Positions 2,819 to 9,820 of a DNA stretch of 24,000 nt are shown piece by piece. The stretch is taken from assembly GCA_964247805.1 (NCBI GenBank), contig CAXTWC010000014.1, positions 30,343-54,342 of the forward strand. Direction: 5' to 3'. Position 1 is the stretch's first letter. Each line of letters starts with the position of its first letter. The position numbers were made by a program, and so were the translations under genes. Source of the stretch: an uncultured Acetobacteraceae bacterium. GTDB taxonomy: Bacteria; Pseudomonadota; Alphaproteobacteria; Acetobacterales; Acetobacteraceae. The notes beneath the pieces are model-generated. The model searched no databases and was not told where the DNA came from. It worked only from the letters and a program-made list of their open reading frames with translations.

Positions 2819-3337
2819 CTAACCAGGATTTCGCACGGGCACGAATGACGCCTCGATGGCACTGAGCGTAGCTACGAGGCGATCCAGCCGAGCCCGGTCC
2901 AGCGGCGTGTCCGGCCTGTCGGGTGGTGGGGCGGCATACTCCATTACTGTGGCGCCAAGGCTTCGGTTCTCGATCACCAGCGTGCACGCATAGGGTCCGT
3001 TCACGTTCAGGCCGTTCCCGGAAGCGTTCACGGCGAGCTGGTGCCAGCAACCGACCGCGAAGCGCTGTCCGCCGCTGGTCCCGGTCAGCGATTGTTCCAC
3101 CGCGGCCTGCTCCAAAGGCGGGCCGCTCGGCGGACGCTGGTCCGCCCCGATCCGCGCCTCGAACCGTACGTGAGCGAAGCGGTCCTGCTCGAACACCATC
3201 TCCACATCCAGACGCTGATCATACTCGGTCGATGGCGTGGCGAGGCGTCCCGTGCGCTCATTCAGGTAGAAGCTGCATCCGGCATAGGTGTTGGCAGGGC
3301 TCGGGTCGATGCACGACACGTCCCGGCTGTCCGGCAC
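2819..3337 (-). CDS. hypothetical exported / lipoprotein-like protein; true 5' end probably lies upstream (near 3478-3482), see findings
   Basis: Strong G/C at codon position 3. Stop is TAG 2821-2819. GTG 3337 is the first canonical in-frame start. However, the same frame stays open up to the TAG at 3487-3485 and encodes …CLLFACTALLPASCGDDPGPEYAKPLAQW…, a signal/lipobox-like segment with no ATG/GTG/TTG. Confidence 0.7.
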   Translation of the reverse strand: MPDSRDVSCIDPSPANTYAGCSFYLNERTGRLATPSTEYDQRLDVEMVFEQDRFAHVRFEARIGADQRPPSGPPLEQAAVEQSLTGTSGGQRFAVGCWHQLAVNASGNGLNVNGPYACTLVIENRSLGATVMEYAAPPPDRPDTPLDRARLDRLVATLSAIEASFVPVRNPG

Positions 3338-3489
3338 CTGGAGTGTCGGCCCGCCCGCCGTCGGAAGGGCGCGTATAGCAACCTTCGTCTCGCGCCATTG
3401 AGCAAGCGGCTTGGCATATTCAGGCCCTGGGTCGTCGCCGCAACTGGCTGGCAGCAGCGCGGTGCAGGCGAACAGCAGGCATCGCTAAC

Positions 3490-4017
3490 TCATGGCGCCG
3501 CACCGTCCTGTTCAGCCGGGCGTGTGGCCTCGATTGCCGCGGCGATCCTGCTTGCATAATCTTCGAGGCTCATGCCTCGGGGCCGCGGACCGCGGATGGA
3601 GAGCTGCGCGCGGCGGCGGGACACTTGGACGTTGGCGCGGCTGTGGTCACGGACCGGCAACATCGCTTCGGGTCTGAAGAAGAAGTCGGTGCAGACGATA
3701 GGATTGTCGGACACCCTGGCATGGTCGATCGCCGACCAAGGCACCAGCGGGTCGGCGAGACCCGGGCAACGGAACCCGGCGGGAGTGATGACCAGGAACG
3801 GCGTGCGGCGGCGCAGGAAGCGGGGTAGAAATTGCAGCACCAGTCCGCCGCCGACCACCAGGAATGTCACCACCAGCAGCCAGGCTGCCCAGTAGTAGAT
3901 TGCGTTGACCAGCAGCACTGGCAGCATGACTGCGCCAGCCAGGAAGAATGCGCCGCCCAACGAAGCCTGCTTAGCCGAGGCGCGGACGTCGTCCAGAACG
4001 GCGCATTCCTCACTCAT
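3490..4017 (-). CDS. membrane protein: 2-TM hairpin plus ~90-aa soluble domain (bacterial PH-like architecture?); paralogue of the C-terminal module of the upstream M48 protein
   Basis: ATG 4017-4015 overlaps the upstream stop (ATGAGTGA, 8-nt overlap). Two long hydrophobic helices (GGAFFLAGAVMLPVLLVNAIYYW / AAWLLVVTFLVVGGGLVLQFL) are followed by RRRTPFLVITPAGFRCPGLADPLVPW…VSRRRAQLSIRGPRPRGMS. Stop is TGA 3492-3490. Confidence 0.8.
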   Translation of the reverse strand: MSEECAVLDDVRASAKQASLGGAFFLAGAVMLPVLLVNAIYYWAAWLLVVTFLVVGGGLVLQFLPRFLRRRTPFLVITPAGFRCPGLADPLVPWSAIDHARVSDNPIVCTDFFFRPEAMLPVRDHSRANVQVSRRRAQLSIRGPRPRGMSLEDYASRIAAAIEATRPAEQDGAAP

Positions 4018-6259
4018 TGGACGGGCTCGTGGAGGGCGGCACGATGTCGGCAGTTTCGTCCGTTGCCAGAAGCGCGTGCAACTCCCTTTCCGAGAGGATC
4101 ATGCTGTAGCCAGGTTCGGCCTCCCCGACCAACGCGGCCCGGGCGCAGGCGGCCGTCCAGTAACGGTTTATGAGTTGGACGAACGCGTCTGGGGATAGGC
4201 CGCGCGGGCGCACGCCGAGCATCGTGACGACGCGACGACGCGCGCTCACCAGCACGCCCCAGCCGGACACGCGCCTCGGCAGCTTCGTTGTGTCCTTCAG
4301 GCGAATGAACACGTGGGTGGAGCGTTGCCGGGTCATGCTCACCCGCTCCACCCCGATCCAAGGCACCATCCGGTCCAATCCGCGGCAGGCGAAGCCGTCG
4401 GGATGTAGCGTGATCAGCGGCGCATTGCGCCCCCGCCACACCATCAAGCCACGCAGGATAGCGGCTGCGCCGACCGTGGCCAAACCGGCTACGACGAGCC
4501 ACATGGTGGGAATCTGCGACGGGTCGTTGATCGTGGCAAACGTCACCGAGTAGGCGAGCAGAAGCCCAGCCGCGAGGAACACCGCCGCCACGATGCCCCA
4601 GACCGCCGCCGGTCTGCGCCAGTCGCCGAGGATCTCGACAACGGTCTCGGTCGGCTGTTCGGCAGCTTCGCGTAGCTGCGCGACGCGTTTCGCGTGGCTG
4701 GACGCGGCCAGTCCGGCTGCGTCGGCGCTGACCGCCGCACAGAGGCTGGCCCAGTCATCGAACAGGCCCCGTGCGAACTCGCTCGCATCGGACCGCACGG
4801 GCCGGGATGCCGCCGCCAGCAACGGCGCCGTCATGACAAGCCCGAGCGCGCCCAAGCGTTGGCTGGTTGGGGGATGGCTATCGGTGGGATGCGGTTGACG
4901 ATCCTCCAGAGCGGCGGCGGCATTGCCCAGGCCCGCCGCCTCGGCGTGGGCGACGATGGCGGCAACCAGGTCGGGGGAGGCAGTCGCGGGCTTGCGCCAG
5001 GTTTCGTCGAGCACGTGGCCGATCACAGGTTGCAGCAAGGCGGTGCGGACCAGGGCGCGTGCCGCCATCTCCGCCCCACTGTGCTGAGCGCCAGCCCGGT
5101 CGGCCTCGATTTCGCGCAGGCGGCTCCAATGCTTCACCGCGCCATCGAACACCGCCATCATGTGCGTCCCGAGCGTGATGGCGGGTCCCTGGGTCCACGA
5201 CGCGGTCGAAGCGCCGCGGACGGAACGCAACGCTTGCAGGTTGCGCTCGATGCCGGTGTAGATCGGCATGAACCGCACACTGTATGCGGTGTCGGTGGCG
5301 AAATGCGCCAGTTCGTGGCCGATGATGGCGGCGGTCTCGCCCGCATCCAGCATGGCGAGCATAGGCAGCGAAATATGCAGCGTGCGGCCGCTCAGCAAAG
5401 TATGGCCGGGCTCCAGCGCAACATTCGCCGAGGTCACGAAGAAGCCGTCAACCAGGCCCGCCGCCACGTGGTCCGGCACTGCCGTTCCCTGCTCGGCCGC
5501 GCGCTCTGCCAGGAATCGCCACAGCCCTGGTGCCTCGTCGGACGTGACTTCACGCCCGAGCAACGGCAGCGGTGCCGGTGTAAACGCGGCAAGCGAGCGG
5601 CGGAGCTGGCGTATGGTGAGCCAGCCAAGCCAGAGCGCCACGCCCGCCACTGCGAGGCCCGGCGTCAGGATCTGGATCTCCGTTCGCCCATCCGACGTGC
5701 CGAACAGCCATCCCAGGATCTCGAACAACACCGCCGCGCTGCAAGCCAGCGCGAGGCCGCCGACCAGGCTGCCGAGTAGGAGCGGCAACAGGGAGCGCAC
5801 TCGGGAGAATGCCGCCTCAAGCGCATCGCGCGATTGCAGGCTCCGTCGCGCGGCCCAGGCGGCGGCGGTCAAGCCCGCGGATCCGGCGAGCAAACTCGTG
5901 ATGCCGCCGAGCATCGTTGCAAGCGCCAGTCCAACGCGGACCCGGGCAGTCATCGCCTCCCATCGTAGAACCCCAACGCCGTCATGCATCATCTTCGCGG
6001 CGAGCTGCGCCCCGTAGGCCTGAGGGTCGCCCTGGAAATGAACGATCCGGTACGGAGTGACCGCGGCGGCCGCATCCATCTGGTTCGCTTGCGCTGCTAG
6101 TTGCGTCGCCTCCTGCGTCAGGCTGGCGAAGCTGGACCATCCGAGTTGCGACTCCCACGCCCCGAGCGCAACGAACAGGAATGGCAGGCCGAGAACGACC
6201 AGACGGCGGCGCCAGGGCAGGTCAGGCAAGCTGGTTTGCTCCGAGGGATGGGCTGCCAC
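4010..6259 (-). CDS. polytopic M48-family (HtpX/Ste24-like) zinc metallopeptidase with C-terminal 2-TM + PH-like(?) extension
   Basis: GTG 6259 is the first start after an in-frame TGA. HExxH is present in AAIIGHELAHFATD. The downstream Glu motif is REIEADRAGA, followed by HPTDSHPPTSQRL; this is the arrangement typical of peptidase M48. There are at least four N-terminal TM helices plus two C-terminal ones. Position-3 GC is high throughout. Confidence 0.85.
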   Translation of the reverse strand: MAAHPSEQTSLPDLPWRRRLVVLGLPFLFVALGAWESQLGWSSFASLTQEATQLAAQANQMDAAAAVTPYRIVHFQGDPQAYGAQLAAKMMHDGVGVLRWEAMTARVRVGLALATMLGGITSLLAGSAGLTAAAWAARRSLQSRDALEAAFSRVRSLLPLLLGSLVGGLALACSAAVLFEILGWLFGTSDGRTEIQILTPGLAVAGVALWLGWLTIRQLRRSLAAFTPAPLPLLGREVTSDEAPGLWRFLAERAAEQGTAVPDHVAAGLVDGFFVTSANVALEPGHTLLSGRTLHISLPMLAMLDAGETAAIIGHELAHFATDTAYSVRFMPIYTGIERNLQALRSVRGASTASWTQGPAITLGTHMMAVFDGAVKHWSRLREIEADRAGAQHSGAEMAARALVRTALLQPVIGHVLDETWRKPATASPDLVAAIVAHAEAAGLGNAAAALEDRQPHPTDSHPPTSQRLGALGLVMTAPLLAAASRPVRSDASEFARGLFDDWASLCAAVSADAAGLAASSHAKRVAQLREAAEQPTETVVEILGDWRRPAAVWGIVAAVFLAAGLLLAYSVTFATINDPSQIPTMWLVVAGLATVGAAAILRGLMVWRGRNAPLITLHPDGFACRGLDRMVPWIGVERVSMTRQRSTHVFIRLKDTTKLPRRVSGWGVLVSARRRVVTMLGVRPRGLSPDAFVQLINRYWTAACARAALVGEAEPGYSMILSERELHALLATDETADIVPPSTSPSNE

Positions 6260-6294
6260 CTGCGTCGCACCCGCTCACCGCCGTGGTCACCGGG

Positions 6295-7014
6295 TCACTC
6301 CGCGGTCGCGGCAAGCGCGCGGACGGCGGCTTCGCATGCATCGGCGACCGCGATGGTGCCAGCGCGATCGGTCGCAGCGTCGTTGAACTGCAGGGCCGGA
6401 CCGATGGTGAGGTGCAAGCGTCCCAGCCGTGGCAGGCGCCGGTCGGGCGGCCAGGCGGCATGGGCGCCGGAGAGGAAGCAGGGCACGACGGGGACCGGAT
6501 GGCCCGCAACCAACGTGCCGATACCGGGCCGGAAGCGTGCCATCGCGCCGGTGCGGCTGCGGGTGCCTTCTGGGAACAGGATCAGCACCGCACCATCCTC
6601 CAGCAGTCGCGCGCGCCACAGGTCGATGTCGGCGTGGGTGGTGTCCTTGCGCCAGACTGGCAGGGCGTTGATGGCATAGGCGGCGAAGGCGGCGCCGGGC
6701 AGAGACGTGAAGAAGGTGTCCCCTGCGGCCAGCGCGAAGGCCCGGCGCGCCAGCCTGTGCGGCAACGCAGCCGCGAGCGTAAGCGCATCCAGATGGCTCG
6801 AGTGGTTCGCCACCAGCACGAAAGGCGGGCTGGGCAAGTGCTGATACCCCGTGACCTTCAACCGGTGCACTGCGAGCAGATAACCCCGCACCAGCGCGCG
6901 CCAGAGAAACCCGAGCAGGTGACCACCCAAGCCGGGCTCGCGGCCGGAGCTGCGCAGACGCTGCTGCAGCGTCAGACCGTGGTCGCGCGCCGGGCGAAGC
7001 TGCCAGTCGGTCAT
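6295..7014 (-). CDS. lysophospholipid (1-acyl-sn-glycerol-3-phosphate) acyltransferase, PlsC family
   Basis: ATG 7014-7012 forms an ATGA overlap with the stop of the upstream gene (7013-7011). Acyltransferase block I is VANHSSHLDA (N-H-x4-D) and block III is LFPEGTRSRTG. The 276 extra N-terminal residues in track ORF 6295..7845 are Arg/Pro-rich and overlap cdsA out of frame. Confidence 0.85.
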   Translation of the reverse strand: MTDWQLRPARDHGLTLQQRLRSSGREPGLGGHLLGFLWRALVRGYLLAVHRLKVTGYQHLPSPPFVLVANHSSHLDALTLAAALPHRLARRAFALAAGDTFFTSLPGAAFAAYAINALPVWRKDTTHADIDLWRARLLEDGAVLILFPEGTRSRTGAMARFRPGIGTLVAGHPVPVVPCFLSGAHAAWPPDRRLPRLGRLHLTIGPALQFNDAATDRAGTIAVADACEAAVRALAATAE

Positions 7015-7979
7015 CCCGTGTAGATCCGCATGGGTTGGTCCAGCCCGACGCCGACGTAGTATTTGAGGTAGTGGAACACGGCCGGGGCCACGAGCAGAAG
7101 CGAGTTGTAGCGATCCAGTAGCCCGCCATGGCCGGGTATAGCGACTCCCATGTCCTTGATGCCGAGGTCGCGCTTGATGCTCGAGAGCATCAGGTCGCCC
7201 GCCTGCCCGCCGATGCTGATGATGGCACCCAAGCCGAGGAGCAGGACCCAGTGGTCGAGCACGGTGTCGGCGAAGATGGTGGAGGCGATCAACGCCACCA
7301 GCACCGACGTTGACACGAGCGCGCCCACCGCTCCAGACACCGTTTTGTTGGGGCTGGTCGCGGGTAGCAGCTTGCGCCCGCCGATCAGTTTGCCGAAGGT
7401 GAAGGCGAATACGTCGTTCAGCGCCACCGTGGTCAGCAACATGAGCACGATGGGCCGGTAGTTCCGGTCGTTGGCCATGTAGCCCAGATGTGCCAGACCG
7501 GCGCCGAACAGCATGAAGGCAAAAATTGCGAGCCCGGTCCGCTGCACGTAGCCCGTAGGCCGGTCCAGCGGGATGGAGACGATCGACAGCACGCCGACGG
7601 TGAGCGGGATCAGCGCCATGAACAGCCCGTACCAAGCATCTAGCGCGGCCGCATTCATCGCCAGCACGCCGAGCATGACGGTTGCGGTGATCAAGGTCTC
7701 GCGGAACAGCCCGGTCGCCCGGTCGTATTCGCGCAGGCAGAGCAGGCCTAGAACGGTGACCATGCCGATCGTCCAGACCCGTCCCAGTAGCACCGGCCCC
7801 AGCATCAGCGGCAGCAGCACCCCCCACGACCCGGTGCGCAGCCACAGCTCCCGTATCAGCGCGGGCGAGGCCCGGCGCGTGATGGCCAACGCGGTGATGA
7901 TGAGGACGGCGAGCAGCAGCACTGCAGTCGCCGCAATGACGATTCCCTGCGTCGCCGGGTGAGCAAAGGCGCCCGTCAC
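7011..7979 (-). CDS. cdsA: phosphatidate cytidylyltransferase (CDP-diacylglycerol synthase) family
   Basis: GTG 7979-7977 forms a GTGA overlap with the upstream stop (7978-7976). The protein is multi-TM. The C-terminal signature is SSIKRDLGIKDMGVAIPGHGGLLDRYNS (compare E. coli S-x-L-K-R-x4-K-D-x-G-x2-I-P-G-H-G-G-I-L-D-R-I-D). The rest of the 601-aa track ORF is an artefactual extension. Confidence 0.85.
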   Translation of the reverse strand: MTGAFAHPATQGIVIAATAVLLLAVLIITALAITRRASPALIRELWLRTGSWGVLLPLMLGPVLLGRVWTIGMVTVLGLLCLREYDRATGLFRETLITATVMLGVLAMNAAALDAWYGLFMALIPLTVGVLSIVSIPLDRPTGYVQRTGLAIFAFMLFGAGLAHLGYMANDRNYRPIVLMLLTTVALNDVFAFTFGKLIGGRKLLPATSPNKTVSGAVGALVSTSVLVALIASTIFADTVLDHWVLLLGLGAIISIGGQAGDLMLSSIKRDLGIKDMGVAIPGHGGLLDRYNSLLLVAPAVFHYLKYYVGVGLDQPMRIYTG

Positions 7980-8617
7980 TGCCGCAGCGCCCGGGCGATG
8001 TGCGCGAGCCGCCGCGCCGCGGTGAGCAGCGCGCCCAGCGTCACGAGCCAGAGTGCAATCTGCGGCCACCCCGCGATCCACCCGGCAGGCAACACGGCGC
8101 AGACGACGGCGAGGAAGGTGACCAACGCCATGCGCTGCTGCTTGGCCATCGGGCCGGAGAAGTCGCTCGGCTGTCCCAACCCCTTGCCGATTGCCCGGAT
8201 GTAGGCGGTCGCCATCGCGGCCAGGGCGGCTGCGAAACCGAGGGCAAGCTGCCCCGCCGCCCAGCCGAGCCCCACAAGCACGGCGGTATCCGACACTCGG
8301 TCCGGCACCTCGTTGAACAGCTCGCCGGTGGCGGACGCGACGCCGCGGCCGATGGCCACCATGCCGTCGAGCAAATTGGCCATAAGCCGGGCCTGCACCA
8401 GCGCGGCCCCGAGCAGCCAGAGCGGACGCGCAGCGCCCGGCACCTGTCGGGTAAGGGCGAACGCGACGCCCGCAAGACAGGCCGCGATGGCACCGGCGAC
8501 AGAAATCCCGTTCGGCGACGCCCCCCGGCGAACCAGCCAGTCGGCCGCAGCCATCACCGGACGTAGACCGCGCGCCGCGATCGGTCGCCGGTCGCCAGCG
8601 ATCCCATTCGCTGCCAT
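7976..8617 (-). CDS. CDP-alcohol phosphatidyltransferase family protein (head-group specificity not inferable)
   Basis: Motif NLLDGMVAIGRGVASATGELFNEVPDRVSD (8377-8300) aligns with D-x2-D-G-x2-A-R-x8-G-x3-D-x3-D. The protein has about 6 TM helices. Start chosen at ATG 8617 (MAANGIAGDRRPIAARG…), as is usual for the family. In-frame alternatives are ATG 8698 and TTG 8710. Confidence 0.8.
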   Translation of the reverse strand: MAANGIAGDRRPIAARGLRPVMAAADWLVRRGASPNGISVAGAIAACLAGVAFALTRQVPGAARPLWLLGAALVQARLMANLLDGMVAIGRGVASATGELFNEVPDRVSDTAVLVGLGWAAGQLALGFAAALAAMATAYIRAIGKGLGQPSDFSGPMAKQQRMALVTFLAVVCAVLPAGWIAGWPQIALWLVTLGALLTAARRLAHIARALRQ

Positions 8618-8664
8618 GTTTATGGCCAATGCCTCCCCACTCGCCCTTGGCTTGCACGCTGCTC

Positions 8665-8695
8665 CGTCGGGGCAGAGTCGCAGCCTGCCCCGGCG
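8665..8695. promoter_or_regulatory. inverted repeat / potential hairpin in the divergent control region
   Basis: CGGGGCAG (8668-8675) and CTGCCCCG (8685-8692) are perfect complements around a 9-nt spacer. Pairing is extendable to 8665-8695 with one T/G position. It lies upstream of the ATG-8617 start, or inside the N-terminal extension if TTG 8710 is used. Confidence 0.3.
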
Positions 8696-8839
8696 CATGA
8701 GAATGCTCAACCCAGCAGGACCAAAGCAGGGCGGGCCAGGCGGCGCGGGCGGCCCGACGAATGCGCCTTCCCTTCCCCGCTCTACAACGACCGCGAGACG
8801 GTCTATCCTCTAGCAAGAACGATCCACCACGGAACCGCC

Positions 8840-9820
8840 ATGAGCCTGAAGAGCCTGATCTCCAGCCAGTTCCTCGATGTGTTGCAGTGGACGGAGGACG
8901 GCCCCGGGGTACTCGCCTGGCGCTACCCCACCGCGGGTCACGCGATCCAAACCGGGTCGTCCTTAACGGTGCGCGAGAGCCAGGCCGCGATGTTCGTCAA
9001 TGAGGGCCGAGTAGCGGACATCTTCGCCCCGGGCCGCTACACGCTGAACACGCAGACGCTGCCAGTGATGACGTCGATCGAGAACTGGGACAAAGGCTTC
9101 CAGTCGCCGTTCAAGTCCGACCTGGTGTTCTTCAGCACCCGTGACCAGACGGACCAGCGCTGGGGCACGGCGCAGCCGATCACGGTGCGCGACAAGGAGC
9201 TCGGCCCGCTGCGCATCCGCGCCAACGGGGTCTACTCGTATCGCGTCCACGACGTGGCGACATTCTACGCCCGGCTGAGCGGGACGACGCCGCGCTACAC
9301 CGTGGATGATGCGGCCGGGCAACTGCGCGCCGGGATCTTGACCGCGATCGCCTCCGGGCTCGGCGCCAGCGCCATCCCGTTCCTCGACATGGCCGCCAAC
9401 CAGCAGCTCCTGTCGGATCGGCTGCACGAAGCAATCGACCCGGTGTTCCTCAACTACGGCCTACAACTGACCGGCTTCTTCATTCAAAGCTTGTCCTTGC
9501 CCGACGAGGTGGCCGAGCATCTGGATCGCCGCTCCTCGATGCAGATCGTCGGCGACATGGGCCAGTACACCCGGTTCGAGGCGGCGGAGAGCTTGCGGGA
9601 CGCAGCCGTCAACGGGGGCGGCGCAGCCGGTGCGGGCGCCGGGCTGGGCGCGGGTCTGGCGTTGGGGCAGGTGATGGGGCAGGCGCTCACACAAGCGGCG
9701 GCCCCCGCATCGGACCCGATCGCCGCCATCGAGCGGCTGGGCGAGCTGTTCAAGCGTGGTGTCCTGACGGAGGCAGAATTCGCCGCGAAGAAAGCCGAGC
9801 TGCTGCAACAGATCCGCTGA
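8840..9820 (+). CDS. SPFH (band-7/flotillin-like; YdjI / COG4260-type) protein with C-terminal SHOCT domain
   Basis: ATG 8840. The N-terminus MSLKSLISSQFLDVLQWTEDGPGVLAWRYP… is as I remember for the YdjI-type SPFH clade. A Gly/Ala linker follows. The C-terminus DPIAAIERLGELFKRGVLTEAEFAAKKAELLQQIR is a textbook SHOCT motif. Stop is TGA 9818-9820. Confidence 0.85.
   Translation: MSLKSLISSQFLDVLQWTEDGPGVLAWRYPTAGHAIQTGSSLTVRESQAAMFVNEGRVADIFAPGRYTLNTQTLPVMTSIENWDKGFQSPFKSDLVFFSTRDQTDQRWGTAQPITVRDKELGPLRIRANGVYSYRVHDVATFYARLSGTTPRYTVDDAAGQLRAGILTAIASGLGASAIPFLDMAANQQLLSDRLHEAIDPVFLNYGLQLTGFFIQSLSLPDEVAEHLDRRSSMQIVGDMGQYTRFEAAESLRDAAVNGGGAAGAGAGLGAGLALGQVMGQALTQAAAPASDPIAAIERLGELFKRGVLTEAEFAAKKAELLQQIR

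What the first reader, a model, noticed from the sequence alone, without database searches (positions are those of the whole stretch)
2819..8617. Second-copy-style phospholipid triad (CDP-alcohol PT, CdsA, PlsC) fused transcriptionally to an M48 protease, its module paralogue and an exported protein
Seen:
- Six minus-strand genes are linked by GTGA (7979/7976), ATGA (7014/7011), a 35-nt gap, ATGAGTGA (4017/4010) and a ~10-nt gap.
- The first three supply acylation of lyso-PA, activation to CDP-DAG and head-group transfer, that is, a complete short pathway to a phospholipid.

Known: M48 enzymes such as HtpX act in membrane-protein quality control.

Inference: this is a dedicated lipid-remodelling plus proteolysis unit rather than housekeeping lipid synthesis. 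Housekeeping cdsA normally sits in the uppS-cdsA-dxr-rseP context. The head group made by the transferase cannot be read from the sequence.
Basis: partly seen in the sequence, partly recalled or inferred. Interest (0 to 1): 0.6.

Follow-up and report, generated by a model that had tools for sequence, protein, structure and literature searches.

The report
Accessory ynb-type lipid cassette beside protease
The three lipid genes are a real, widely conserved extra copy of a phospholipid pathway (the still-uncharacterised ynb/arc1 kind), but their link to the neighbouring M48 protease is seen intact only in this genome, so nothing shows a conserved lipid-plus-protease machine.

Summary
Observation: confirmed. 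Six minus-strand genes lie at 2819-8617 with the stated junctions. The exception is the last gene: its ATG overlaps the upstream stop and codon 3 is an in-frame TAG.

The triad is a YnbA-like CDP-alcohol transferase, a YnbB-like CdsA paralogue and a PlsC-type acyltransferase. It is additional to the housekeeping cdsA (uppS-cdsA-dxr-rseP, contig C215) and pgsA (C16). It was not found in two complete congeners. As a unit it recurs in Acetobacteraceae, Planctomycetota, Verrucomicrobiota and Acidobacteriota: 51 of 65 informative loci. In Photorhabdus and Aureimonas the transferase and acyltransferase are one fused protein.

This is the same kind of cassette as E. coli ynbAB and, by published description only, Pseudomonas arc1. 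Its lipid product is unknown. This scan has reported such cassettes before on other DNA.

The M48 linkage is not conserved. None of about 90 triad loci carries the protease. None of 13 M48-homologue loci carries the triad (one further class-level homologue's locus was not fetched). The closest relative loses synteny at the end of the acyltransferase gene. The M48 protein, its stand-alone TM-hairpin paralogue and a rare lipoprotein form a separate accessory unit.

One relic elsewhere, a transferase fragment just upstream of the paralogue, hints the junction is older than this genome.

First reading: partly supported. Interest: low to moderate.

The parts
7976..8617 (-). Gene A: YnbA-like CDP-alcohol phosphatidyltransferase, 213 aa. 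Motif N-x2-D-G-x2-A-x9-G-x3-N-x3-D-x3-D.
   Evidence: PF01066 scores 17 bits, below the cut-off. NCBIfam AIPS 69.5 and PIPS 51.7 bits, both far below their cut-offs. 25% identical to E. coli YnbA. N81, D84, G85, A88, G98, N102, D106 and D110 are invariant in alignment A1, which includes YnbA. The closest solved structure is M. tuberculosis PIP synthase 6h53, E 1e-13.
7011..7979 (-). Gene B: CdsA paralogue of the YnbB-like kind, 322 aa, about 8 TM segments. GTG start overlaps A's stop.
   Evidence: PF01148 scores 170 bits. It aligns with E. coli YnbB over residues 52-307 (29%, E 7e-29). It aligns with the genome's own housekeeping CdsA only over the C-terminal 118 aa. The tree places it in a starred 'triad-B' group, separate from housekeeping CdsA and from YnbB-type.
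6295..7014 (-). Gene C: PlsC/AGPAT-family acyltransferase, 239 aa, with HX4D (NHSSHLD) and FPEGTRS. ATG overlaps B's stop.
   Evidence: PF01553 scores 84 bits. TIGR00530 scores 48.5 bits, below the cut-off of 103. The domain is fused to the A-type transferase in Photorhabdus L103 and Aureimonas L113.
6260..6294 (-). Gap between C and D: 35 nt, or 65 nt if D starts at TTG 6229.
   Evidence: No terminator-like site. Fold z-score 0.18. GGAG lies 9 nt before TTG 6229. DNA homology with the closest relative, L036, ends at 6314.
4010..6259 (-). Gene D: 749-aa membrane M48 metalloprotease. HELAH at residue 315, EIEAD at 383. C-terminal TM hairpin (about 551-607) plus a soluble module.
   Evidence: PF01435 scores 47 bits. 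Motifs and TM segments. Homologues occur in 8 of 150 family genomes and 1 of 400 class genomes; the 8 family loci fetched are not next to the triad, and the class genome with a homologue has no transferase match.
3490..4017 (-). Gene E: 175-aa stand-alone paralogue of D's C-terminal module. TM hairpin plus a beta-sandwich with a C-terminal helix. 8-nt overlap with D.
   Evidence: 36% identity over 115 aa with D's C-terminus, E 1e-13. 24 stand-alone homologues. AlphaFold model pLDDT 90.4. Only weak PH/PTB-like fold matches, E >= 0.19. STM3941_fam 17.6 bits against a cut-off of 40.
2819..3493 (-). Gene F: lipoprotein-like gene (lipobox LPAS-C). ATG 3493 overlaps E's stop. Interrupted by TAG at codon 3 (3487-3485).
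   Evidence: Sequence read. The intact 222-aa homologue in L120 begins MIGRSLLFICVVLLPTGC with the same ATGA overlap and has GGG at the TAG position. The family is rare: 14 representative clusters among 1.84 billion proteins.

Best explanation
Two separate accessory units lie head-to-tail on one strand.

Unit 1 (A-B-C, 6295-8617) is a self-contained, translationally coupled phospholipid side pathway of the ynb/arc1 kind.
- A PlsC-type acyltransferase supplies or re-acylates a phosphatidate-type lipid (inferred).
- A YnbB-like CdsA paralogue activates it with CTP to CDP-diacylglycerol (inferred from family; shown for E. coli YnbB in the literature).
- A YnbA-like transferase, with Asn at two of the four canonical Asp positions, passes the phosphatidyl group to an unidentified acceptor. 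The acceptor is probably a phosphorylated polyol or sugar, because the nearest characterised relatives are PIP/AIP synthases.
- The cassette works beside the housekeeping cdsA and pgsA, not instead of them.

Unit 2 (D-E-F, 2819-6259) is a rare membrane M48 protease. Its C-terminal TM-hairpin module is duplicated as a stand-alone protein, which is coupled to a small lipoprotein gene carrying a nonsense codon here.

The adjacency of the two units is lineage-specific. They may be read through on one transcript in this genome, but the data give no evidence that protease and lipid enzymes form a conserved functional system.
For: Second copy:
- Housekeeping cdsA lies in uppS-cdsA-dxr-rseP on C215.
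- A pgsA equivalog lies on C16 (133 bits against a cut-off of 109).
- Five of five complete triad-bearing relatives have two CdsA genes and higher-scoring AGPAT copies elsewhere.
- The transferase and the protease both have no match in two complete same-genus genomes.

Triad as a unit:
- A-B-C is present in all 11 family genomes that have A; the most distant, L035, has the order A-C-B.
- It is present in 51 of 65 loci with enough downstream sequence, across several phyla.
- A and the PlsC domain are fused in Photorhabdus and Aureimonas, followed by a YnbB-like gene.
- YnbC/YnbD homologues lie beside the triad in L079 and L089.

Ynb relation.

Literature:
- YnbB makes CDP-DAG and supports MPIase but not bulk phospholipid synthesis (PMC6362211, PMC7018664).
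- arc1 (PA2536-41) is a specialised phospholipid-gene cluster that protects against T6SS attack, including lipases (PMC8926400, PMC12663445).

Separate unit 2:
- D homologues sit in unrelated contexts.
- D and E-type genes recur near each other in L116, L120 and L131.
- The E-F pair with the same ATGA overlap occurs in L120; E and F are also adjacent in L123.
- Synteny with the closest triad relative ends at the 3' end of C.
Against: - The C/D gap is short (35-65 nt), on the same strand, and has no terminator-like feature. Co-transcription here is therefore plausible.
- In L122/L133 a relic of A (codons about 7-41, 82% identity) lies about 70 nt upstream of an E homologue. This is what a deletion of A'-B-C-D from a window-like arrangement would leave.
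- Within the family sample, 5 of 8 M48-bearing genomes also carry the triad, against 11 of 150 overall. The genes are far apart in those genomes, and relatedness is not controlled.
- No enzymatic step or lipid product is shown for this cassette.
- The window's genome is only 74% complete, and its housekeeping plsC was not identified with certainty.
Confidence: 0.72

Rival explanations
1. The six genes are one functional operon in this lineage. On this view it is an envelope-damage response in which the lipid cassette rebuilds phospholipid while the M48 protease, with its PH-like partner and lipoprotein, clears or senses damaged membrane proteins.
For: - The genes share a strand, with a 35-65 nt gap that has no terminator-like site.
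- A relic of A lies directly upstream of an E homologue in L122/L133.
- In the family sample, the M48 gene and the triad co-occur in 5 of 8 M48-bearing genomes.
- arc1-type cassettes act in defence against membrane-damaging effectors (PMC8926400, PMC12663445).
Against: - 0 of about 93 triad loci carry D, E or F.
- 0 of 13 D-homologue loci carry the triad. The one further D homologue found in the class sample was not fetched, but its genome has no transferase match.
- Where both occur in one genome they lie on different contigs or about 1.8 Mb apart.
- Synteny with the closest relative breaks exactly between C and D.
- In the class-wide sample D (1 of 400) and A (7 of 400) never coincide.
- F carries a nonsense codon here.
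Confidence: 0.13
2. The triad makes an inositol phospholipid, with A acting as a PIP-synthase-type enzyme that uses inositol-1-phosphate.
For: The best NCBIfam and PDB relatives of A are archaetidylinositol-phosphate and phosphatidylinositol-phosphate synthases. The shared 'DRxSD' tail of the motif is visible in the alignment with 6h53.
Against: - Scores are far below the equivalog cut-offs: 69.5 against 180 and 51.7 against 170.
- Two metal-ligand Asp positions are invariantly Asn.
- No inositol-1-phosphate synthase (PF07994) was found in the window's genome. None was found in 3 of 5 complete triad-bearing relatives.
Confidence: 0.1
3. The triad makes a pyrophosphate-linked glycolipid anchor of the MPIase type (sugar-PP-diacylglycerol). 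B would act like YnbB, and A would transfer phosphatidyl to a sugar-1-phosphate.
For: - B aligns over its full length with YnbB, including the N-terminal half that distinguishes YnbB from CdsA (PMC7018664).
- YnbB supports MPIase but not bulk phospholipid synthesis (PMC6362211).
- The altered metal site of A is shared with YnbA.
Against: - B belongs to a group separate from the YnbB type.
- In the E. coli papers read, the sugar-phosphate transfer is attributed to CdsA/YnbB themselves and YnbA is not mentioned.
- No glycosyltransferase is consistently linked to the triad.
Confidence: 0.12
4. These are the organism's housekeeping phospholipid genes.
For: In this 74%-complete genome no unambiguous housekeeping plsC was identified.
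Against: - Housekeeping cdsA and pgsA are present elsewhere.
- The transferase was not found in two complete congeners, nor in 139 of the 150 family genomes searched.
- Relatives carry better AGPAT copies elsewhere.
Confidence: 0.02

Closest known systems
Escherichia coli K-12 ynbA-ynbB-ynbC-ynbD operon (b1408-b1411)
   Same: - A small CDP-alcohol transferase with Asn at two Asp positions is followed immediately by, and overlaps, a CdsA paralogue whose N-terminal half is unlike CdsA.
- It is non-essential and additional to housekeeping cdsA (PMC6362211).
- The product of the operon is unknown.
   Different: - Identity is only 25% (A) and 29% (B), and B falls in a separate clade from the YnbB type.
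- The third gene here is a PlsC-type acyltransferase, not the hydrolase/methyltransferase YnbC.
- No YnbC or YnbD homologue was found in this genome, which is 74% complete.
Pseudomonas aeruginosa arc1A-F (PA2541-PA2536) and the equivalent P. protegens cluster
   Same: - It is described as a specialised cluster of phospholipid-synthesis homologues additional to the core machinery (PMC8926400).
- The P. protegens version lists a CDP-alcohol transferase, a PlsC and a CdsA together (PMC13541209).
   Different: - arc1 has six genes, including an alpha/beta-hydrolase/methyltransferase and a PAP2 phosphatase that are absent here.
- It is Gac/Rsm-regulated and has a defence phenotype against T6SS attack, including lipases (PMC8926400, PMC12663445). 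Neither property is testable here.
Phosphatidylinositol-phosphate synthases (M. tuberculosis PgsA1, PDB 6h53/6h59) and archaetidylinositol-phosphate synthase
   Same: These are the closest characterised relatives of A by profile. Length, six-TM-type layout and motif spacing are the same.
   Different: - A has Asn at D1 and D3, and Ile instead of the motif Arg.
- Scores are far below the equivalog cut-offs.
- There is no consistent inositol-1-phosphate synthase partner.
HtpX/Ste24-type M48 membrane metalloproteases
   Same: D has HExxH and a downstream ExxAD glutamate, sits in the membrane, and passes the Pfam M48 threshold.
   Different: - D is 749 aa with extra N-terminal TM segments and a C-terminal TM hairpin plus PH-like module.
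- HtpX equivalog scores are negligible, about 16 bits against cut-offs of 245-275.
- The family is rare: 81 proteins were found by the word-indexed search.

Membership tests
YnbA-type CDP-alcohol phosphatidyltransferase | CDP-alcohol transferase motif with Asn replacing the first and third Asp (N-x2-DG-x2-A...G-x3-N-x3-D-x3-D) | tested here: met
   N81 and N102 are invariant across 20 relatives and E. coli YnbA in alignment A1. Pairwise alignment with YnbA.
YnbA-type CDP-alcohol phosphatidyltransferase | Immediately followed by, and coupled to, a CdsA paralogue | tested here: met
   GTGA overlap at 7979/7976. The same order occurs in 62 of 65 informative loci.
YnbB-type CdsA paralogue | Catalytic C-terminal half homologous to CdsA; N-terminal half not homologous to CdsA but alignable with YnbB | tested here: met
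   Aligns with YnbB over residues 52-307. Aligns with the genome's own CdsA only over residues 178-295. Definition taken from PMC7018664.
YnbB-type CdsA paralogue | Falls inside the YnbB clade in a tree | tested here: not met
   Three starred groups were recovered. Window B lies in 'triad-B', next to the YnbB type only under midpoint rooting, which was used for drawing only.
YnbB-type CdsA paralogue | Supports MPIase (GlcNAc-PP-DAG) but not bulk phospholipid synthesis | not testable with these tools
   Needs complementation or in vitro assays as in PMC6362211.
ynbABCD operon | YnbC (hydrolase/methyltransferase) and YnbD (phosphatase) partners | tested here: not met
   No tblastn hit for YnbC or YnbD in the window's genome at E <= 1e-5. 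They do lie next to the triad in L079 and L089.
arc1 antagonism-resistance cluster | Six-gene cluster with transferase, CdsA, PlsC, hydrolase/methyltransferase and PAP2; Gac/Rsm control; defence phenotype | not tested
   Only the published descriptions were compared (PMC8926400, PMC13541209, PMC12663445). No Pseudomonas sequence was available to align. Three of the listed enzyme types are present here.
Phosphatidylinositol-phosphate synthase (NF045883) / archaetidylinositol-phosphate synthase (NF040950) | Score above the equivalog cut-off, and four Asp in the motif | tested here: not met
   51.7 against 170 bits and 69.5 against 180 bits. D1 and D3 are Asn.
PgsA (TIGR00560) | Score above the cut-off | tested here: not met
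   A has no TIGR00560 hit. The genome's pgsA is on C16, with 133 bits against a cut-off of 109.
Housekeeping CdsA | uppS-cdsA-dxr-rseP context | tested here: not met
   That context is on contig C215. Window B is flanked by A and C.
Peptidase M48 | HExxH plus a downstream Glu ligand; Pfam gathering score | tested here: met
   HELAH at 315 and EIEAD at 383. PF01435 scores 46.9 against 20.3 bits.
HtpX (NF003965/NF002322) | Equivalog score | tested here: not met
   About 16 bits against cut-offs of 245-275.
STM3941 family / bacterial PH-like membrane module (gene E) | Family score; TM hairpin followed by a PH-like sandwich capped by a C-terminal helix | tested here: inconclusive
   17.6 against 40 bits. 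The confident model shows a TM hairpin, strands and a terminal helix. Foldseek gives only weak PH/PTB-like matches, E >= 0.19.
Bacterial lipoprotein (gene F) | Signal peptide with lipobox Cys and a usable start codon | tested here: inconclusive
   The lipobox LPAS-C is present. ATG 3493 is followed by TAG at codon 3, whereas the intact homologue L120 has MIGRS...LPTGC.

The most novel reading that the evidence does not exclude
In this lineage the ynb-type lipid cassette became part of a six-gene envelope unit with the M48 protease and its PH-like partner. On this reading the protease or its module senses or acts on the cassette's unknown lipid. The transferase relic fused upstream of an E homologue in another organism would then be the remains of the same unit. 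It would be a first functional link between a ynb/arc1-type lipid and membrane proteolysis.
Probability: 0.1. Interest if true: 0.6.

Novelty: new variant of a known kind. Interest (0 to 1): 0.3.

Why it matters
The ynb/arc1-type cassettes are widespread. One version is linked to membrane-protein integration in E. coli (YnbB and MPIase). Another is linked to defence against interbacterial attack in Pseudomonas (arc1). No lipid product has been identified for any of them.

The minimal three-gene form seen here, and the natural transferase-acyltransferase fusion found in Photorhabdus and Aureimonas, define the smallest set of enzymes to express together for finding that product.

The protease linkage, which drove the original interest, is a local juxtaposition and should not be used to infer function.

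Tried and rejected
1. Inositol head group. I looked for inositol-1-phosphate synthase (PF07994). It was not found in the window's genome or in 3 of 5 complete triad-bearing relatives. The idea is weakened but not excluded.

2. Conserved extra partners of the triad. All-against-all clustering of flanking ORFs in 13 triad loci and 8 M48 loci found nothing shared beyond the triad, or the M48 gene, and their shadow frames.

3. Terminator or promoter in the C/D gap. No site was found and the fold is unremarkable. These are consensus scans only.

5. Fold identification of E. The model is confident, but Foldseek matches against the PDB are all non-significant. The PH-like label therefore stays tentative.

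6. Co-occurrence of the M48 gene and the triad. It looks enriched in the family sample (5 of 8) but vanishes in the class sample. Relatedness is not controlled, so I do not count it as evidence of function.

8. Direct comparison with the arc1 proteins.

Full report
**The genes and their junctions**

The region holds six minus-strand ORFs.
- A: 7976-8617, 213 aa.
- B: 7011-7979, 322 aa.
- C: 6295-7014, 239 aa.
- D: 4010-6259, 749 aa.
- E: 3490-4017, 175 aa.
- F: 2819 to about 3493.

Read from the sequence, the junctions are:
- A/B: GTGA overlap.
- B/C: ATGA overlap.
- C/D: a 35-nt gap.
- D/E: ATGAGTGA overlap.

D may instead start at TTG 6229, which has GGAG 9 nt upstream and gives a 65-nt gap. 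The database copy of this protein is 739 aa, which fits that start.

The E/F junction differs from the finding. ATG 3493 overlaps E's stop, codon 2 is AGT and codon 3 is TAG (3487-3485). The frame then continues into a lipobox signal peptide. An intact homologue in L120 has the same ATGA overlap, begins MIGRSLLFICVVLLPTGC, and reads GGG where the window reads TAG. F is therefore interrupted by a nonsense codon, or the assembly is wrong at that base.

No terminator-like site or unusual fold lies in the C/D gap.

**Family assignments**

- B: CTP_transf_1, 170 bits.
- C: Acyltransferase, 84 bits, with HX4D and FPEGTRS.
- D: Peptidase_M48, 47 bits, with HELAH at residue 315 and EIEAD at 383.
- A: below the Pfam threshold for PF01066 (17 against 22 bits). 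It matches archaetidylinositol-phosphate synthase (69.5 bits) and PIP synthase (51.7 bits), both far below the equivalog cut-offs. A profile of its family finds M. tuberculosis PIP synthase at E 1e-13.
- D's C-terminal 200 residues and E are homologous: 36% over 115 aa, E 1e-13.

**Is the triad a second copy? Yes.**

The window lies in a 74%-complete, 328-contig assembly.
- A second CdsA gene lies on contig C215 within pyrH-frr-uppS-cdsA-dxr-rseP.
- A pgsA equivalog lies on C16, with 133 bits against a cut-off of 109 and the canonical four-Asp motif.
- A third, PIPS-like transferase lies on C21.
- No paralogue of A, C, D, E or F exists elsewhere in the assembly.
- A housekeeping plsC was not identified with certainty here.
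- All five complete triad-bearing relatives tested have two CdsA genes and AGPAT copies scoring 82-99 bits elsewhere. The triad's own copy scores 48-55 bits.
- Two complete same-genus genomes have no match to A or to D.

**What kind of cassette is it?**

B aligns with E. coli YnbB over almost its whole length (residues 52-307, E 7e-29). It aligns with the genome's own CdsA only in the catalytic C-terminal half. That is how the literature distinguishes YnbB from CdsA (PMC7018664).

A aligns with YnbA. In an alignment of 20 relatives plus YnbA the signature N-x2-D-G-x2-A...G-x3-N-x3-D-x3-D is invariant. Two of the four canonical Asp are therefore Asn throughout the family, which makes this a family trait rather than decay.

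A maximum-likelihood tree gives three well-supported groups: housekeeping CdsA, YnbB-type and 'triad-B'. The window's B is in triad-B. It is a relative of YnbB, not an orthologue.

The Asp-to-Asn change in B's PGHGG-x2-DR-x-D motif is confined to the alphaproteobacterial, acidobacterial and one Phycisphaerales member sampled. Other triad-B proteins keep Asp.

**Conservation of the triad**

In 150 sampled genomes of the family, 11 have A. All 11 have B and C beside it; the most distant has the order A-C-B.

A scan of species-representative genomes returned 80 loci. They come from Acetobacteraceae, Planctomycetota, Verrucomicrobiota, Acidobacteriota, Hydrogenedentota, Dormibacterota, Photorhabdus, Proteus and Rhizobiales. 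Of the 65 with at least 2.4 kb downstream:
- 51 show A-B-C.
- 11 show A followed by a CdsA paralogue.
- 3 show A alone.

In Photorhabdus kayaii and Aureimonas jatrophae, A is fused to a PlsC-type acyltransferase domain (484 and 418 aa) and is followed by a YnbB-type gene. This natural fusion argues that transferase and acyltransferase work together.

YnbC and YnbD homologues lie next to the triad in two planctomycete loci. This bridges the triad to the E. coli operon.

Published descriptions of Pseudomonas arc1 and a P. protegens cluster list the same enzyme types plus a hydrolase/methyltransferase and a PAP2 phosphatase (PMC8926400, PMC13541209). arc1 contributes to resistance against T6SS attack, including lipase effectors (PMC8926400, PMC12663445). 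I did not align the window's proteins with arc1 proteins. No paper I read names the lipid product.

**The M48 linkage**

- D homologues occur in 8 of 150 family genomes. In the five that also have the triad, the two loci are on different contigs or 1.8 Mb apart.
- The four closest D homologues (64-75% identity) sit in four unrelated contexts without triad, E or F.
- None of the 80 + 13 triad loci has D, E or F.
- In a class-wide sample D occurs in 1 of 400 genomes and A in 7 of 400, never together.
- The closest relative of the triad, L036, has 86% DNA identity and the same divergent SPFH gene. It loses homology at window 6314, about 20 nt before C's stop.

**What D-E-F is**

E has 24 stand-alone homologues. 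Its AlphaFold model (pLDDT 90.4) is a TM hairpin followed by a beta-sandwich and a terminal helix. Foldseek finds only non-significant PH/PTB-like matches.

D-type and E-type genes recur near each other:
- L116 has D followed by fragments of E.
- L120 has a transposase-like gene, a relic of D's C-terminus, a DUF4153 gene, then E and F.
- L131 has D and E 5 kb apart.

F is rare, with 14 representative clusters in 1.84 billion proteins. It follows E in L120 and L123. D-E-F is therefore a small accessory unit of its own.

**A complication**

In L122, and in the similar record L133, a fragment matching A codons about 7-41 (82% identity, without a start codon) lies about 70 nt upstream of an E homologue. 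A single deletion of A'-B-C-D from a window-like arrangement would leave exactly this. The junction may therefore be older than this genome, or the block may have moved as a unit. This is one case and does not show a shared function. It is why I keep a 0.10-0.13 probability for the six-gene reading.

**Head group**

The PIPS-like affinity suggests a phosphorylated polyol or sugar acceptor. Inositol-1-phosphate synthase was not found in the window's genome or in 3 of 5 complete triad-bearing relatives. The YnbB literature suggests a pyrophosphate-linked sugar lipid as another option. Neither can be decided from sequence.

**Limits**

- The assembly is incomplete.
- Kinship among the sampled genomes is not controlled.
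- arc1 was compared only by published description.
- This scan has already reported ynb-type cassettes several times on other DNA. I re-tested the shared claims here: the Asn motif, the YnbB-like alignment and the second-copy status.

**Verdict**

The lipid-plus-protease unit is not supported as a conserved system.

Noticed in passing
window 3485-3493: Gene F has ATG 3493 overlapping E's stop, then AGT, then an in-frame TAG. The intact homologue in L120 reads ATG ATC GGG at the same place. This is either a nonsense mutation or an assembly error. In L123 the F homologue matches in two overlapping segments.
   Followed up: yes
L122:6881-6982 and L133:6494-6592: A start-less fragment of an A-type transferase (codons about 7-41, 82% identity) lies about 70 nt upstream of an E homologue. 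This is as expected if A'-B-C-D had been deleted from a window-like arrangement.
   Followed up: partly
L103:6980-8434 (Photorhabdus kayaii); L113:6970-8226 (Aureimonas jatrophae): The YnbA-like transferase is fused to a PlsC-type acyltransferase domain in one protein and is followed by a YnbB-type CdsA paralogue. L105, L107, L108, L091 and L093 have the same spacing and are probably fused too.
   Followed up: partly
L120:3890-8232: The order is: transposase-like HTH_33 gene, an 81%-identical relic of the last ~105 residues of the M48 protein, a 581-aa DUF4153 membrane protein, then E and F homologues. It looks like a disrupted and rebuilt version of the D-E-F block.
   Followed up: partly
L013:8001-8630 (Deinococcus sp.): An A-type transferase 68% identical to the window's stands alone, without B or C, inside a fatty-acid beta-oxidation gene cluster. 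The high identity across phyla suggests horizontal transfer.
   Followed up: no
window 7104-7130 (B residues about 284-292): B reads PGHGGLLDRYNS. The last Asp of the CdsA signature is Asn only in the alphaproteobacterial, acidobacterial and one Phycisphaerales triad-B protein sampled. Verrucomicrobial, planctomycete and other members keep Asp.
   Followed up: yes
window 6229-6259: An alternative start for the M48 gene is TTG 6229, with GGAG 9 nt upstream. It gives 739 aa, the length of the database copy, and widens the C/D gap to 65 nt.
   Followed up: partly
G000 contig C21:3672-4310 (L011): This is a third CDP-alcohol transferase in the genome, with all four Asp and weak PIPS/AIPS-like scores. 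It is neither pgsA nor the ynbA-like gene, and its role is unknown.
   Followed up: no
window 8618-9820 and L036:1-960: The divergent arrangement of the SPFH-operon start and gene A is shared with the closest relative, L036. It was not seen in the other 79 triad loci.
   Followed up: partly
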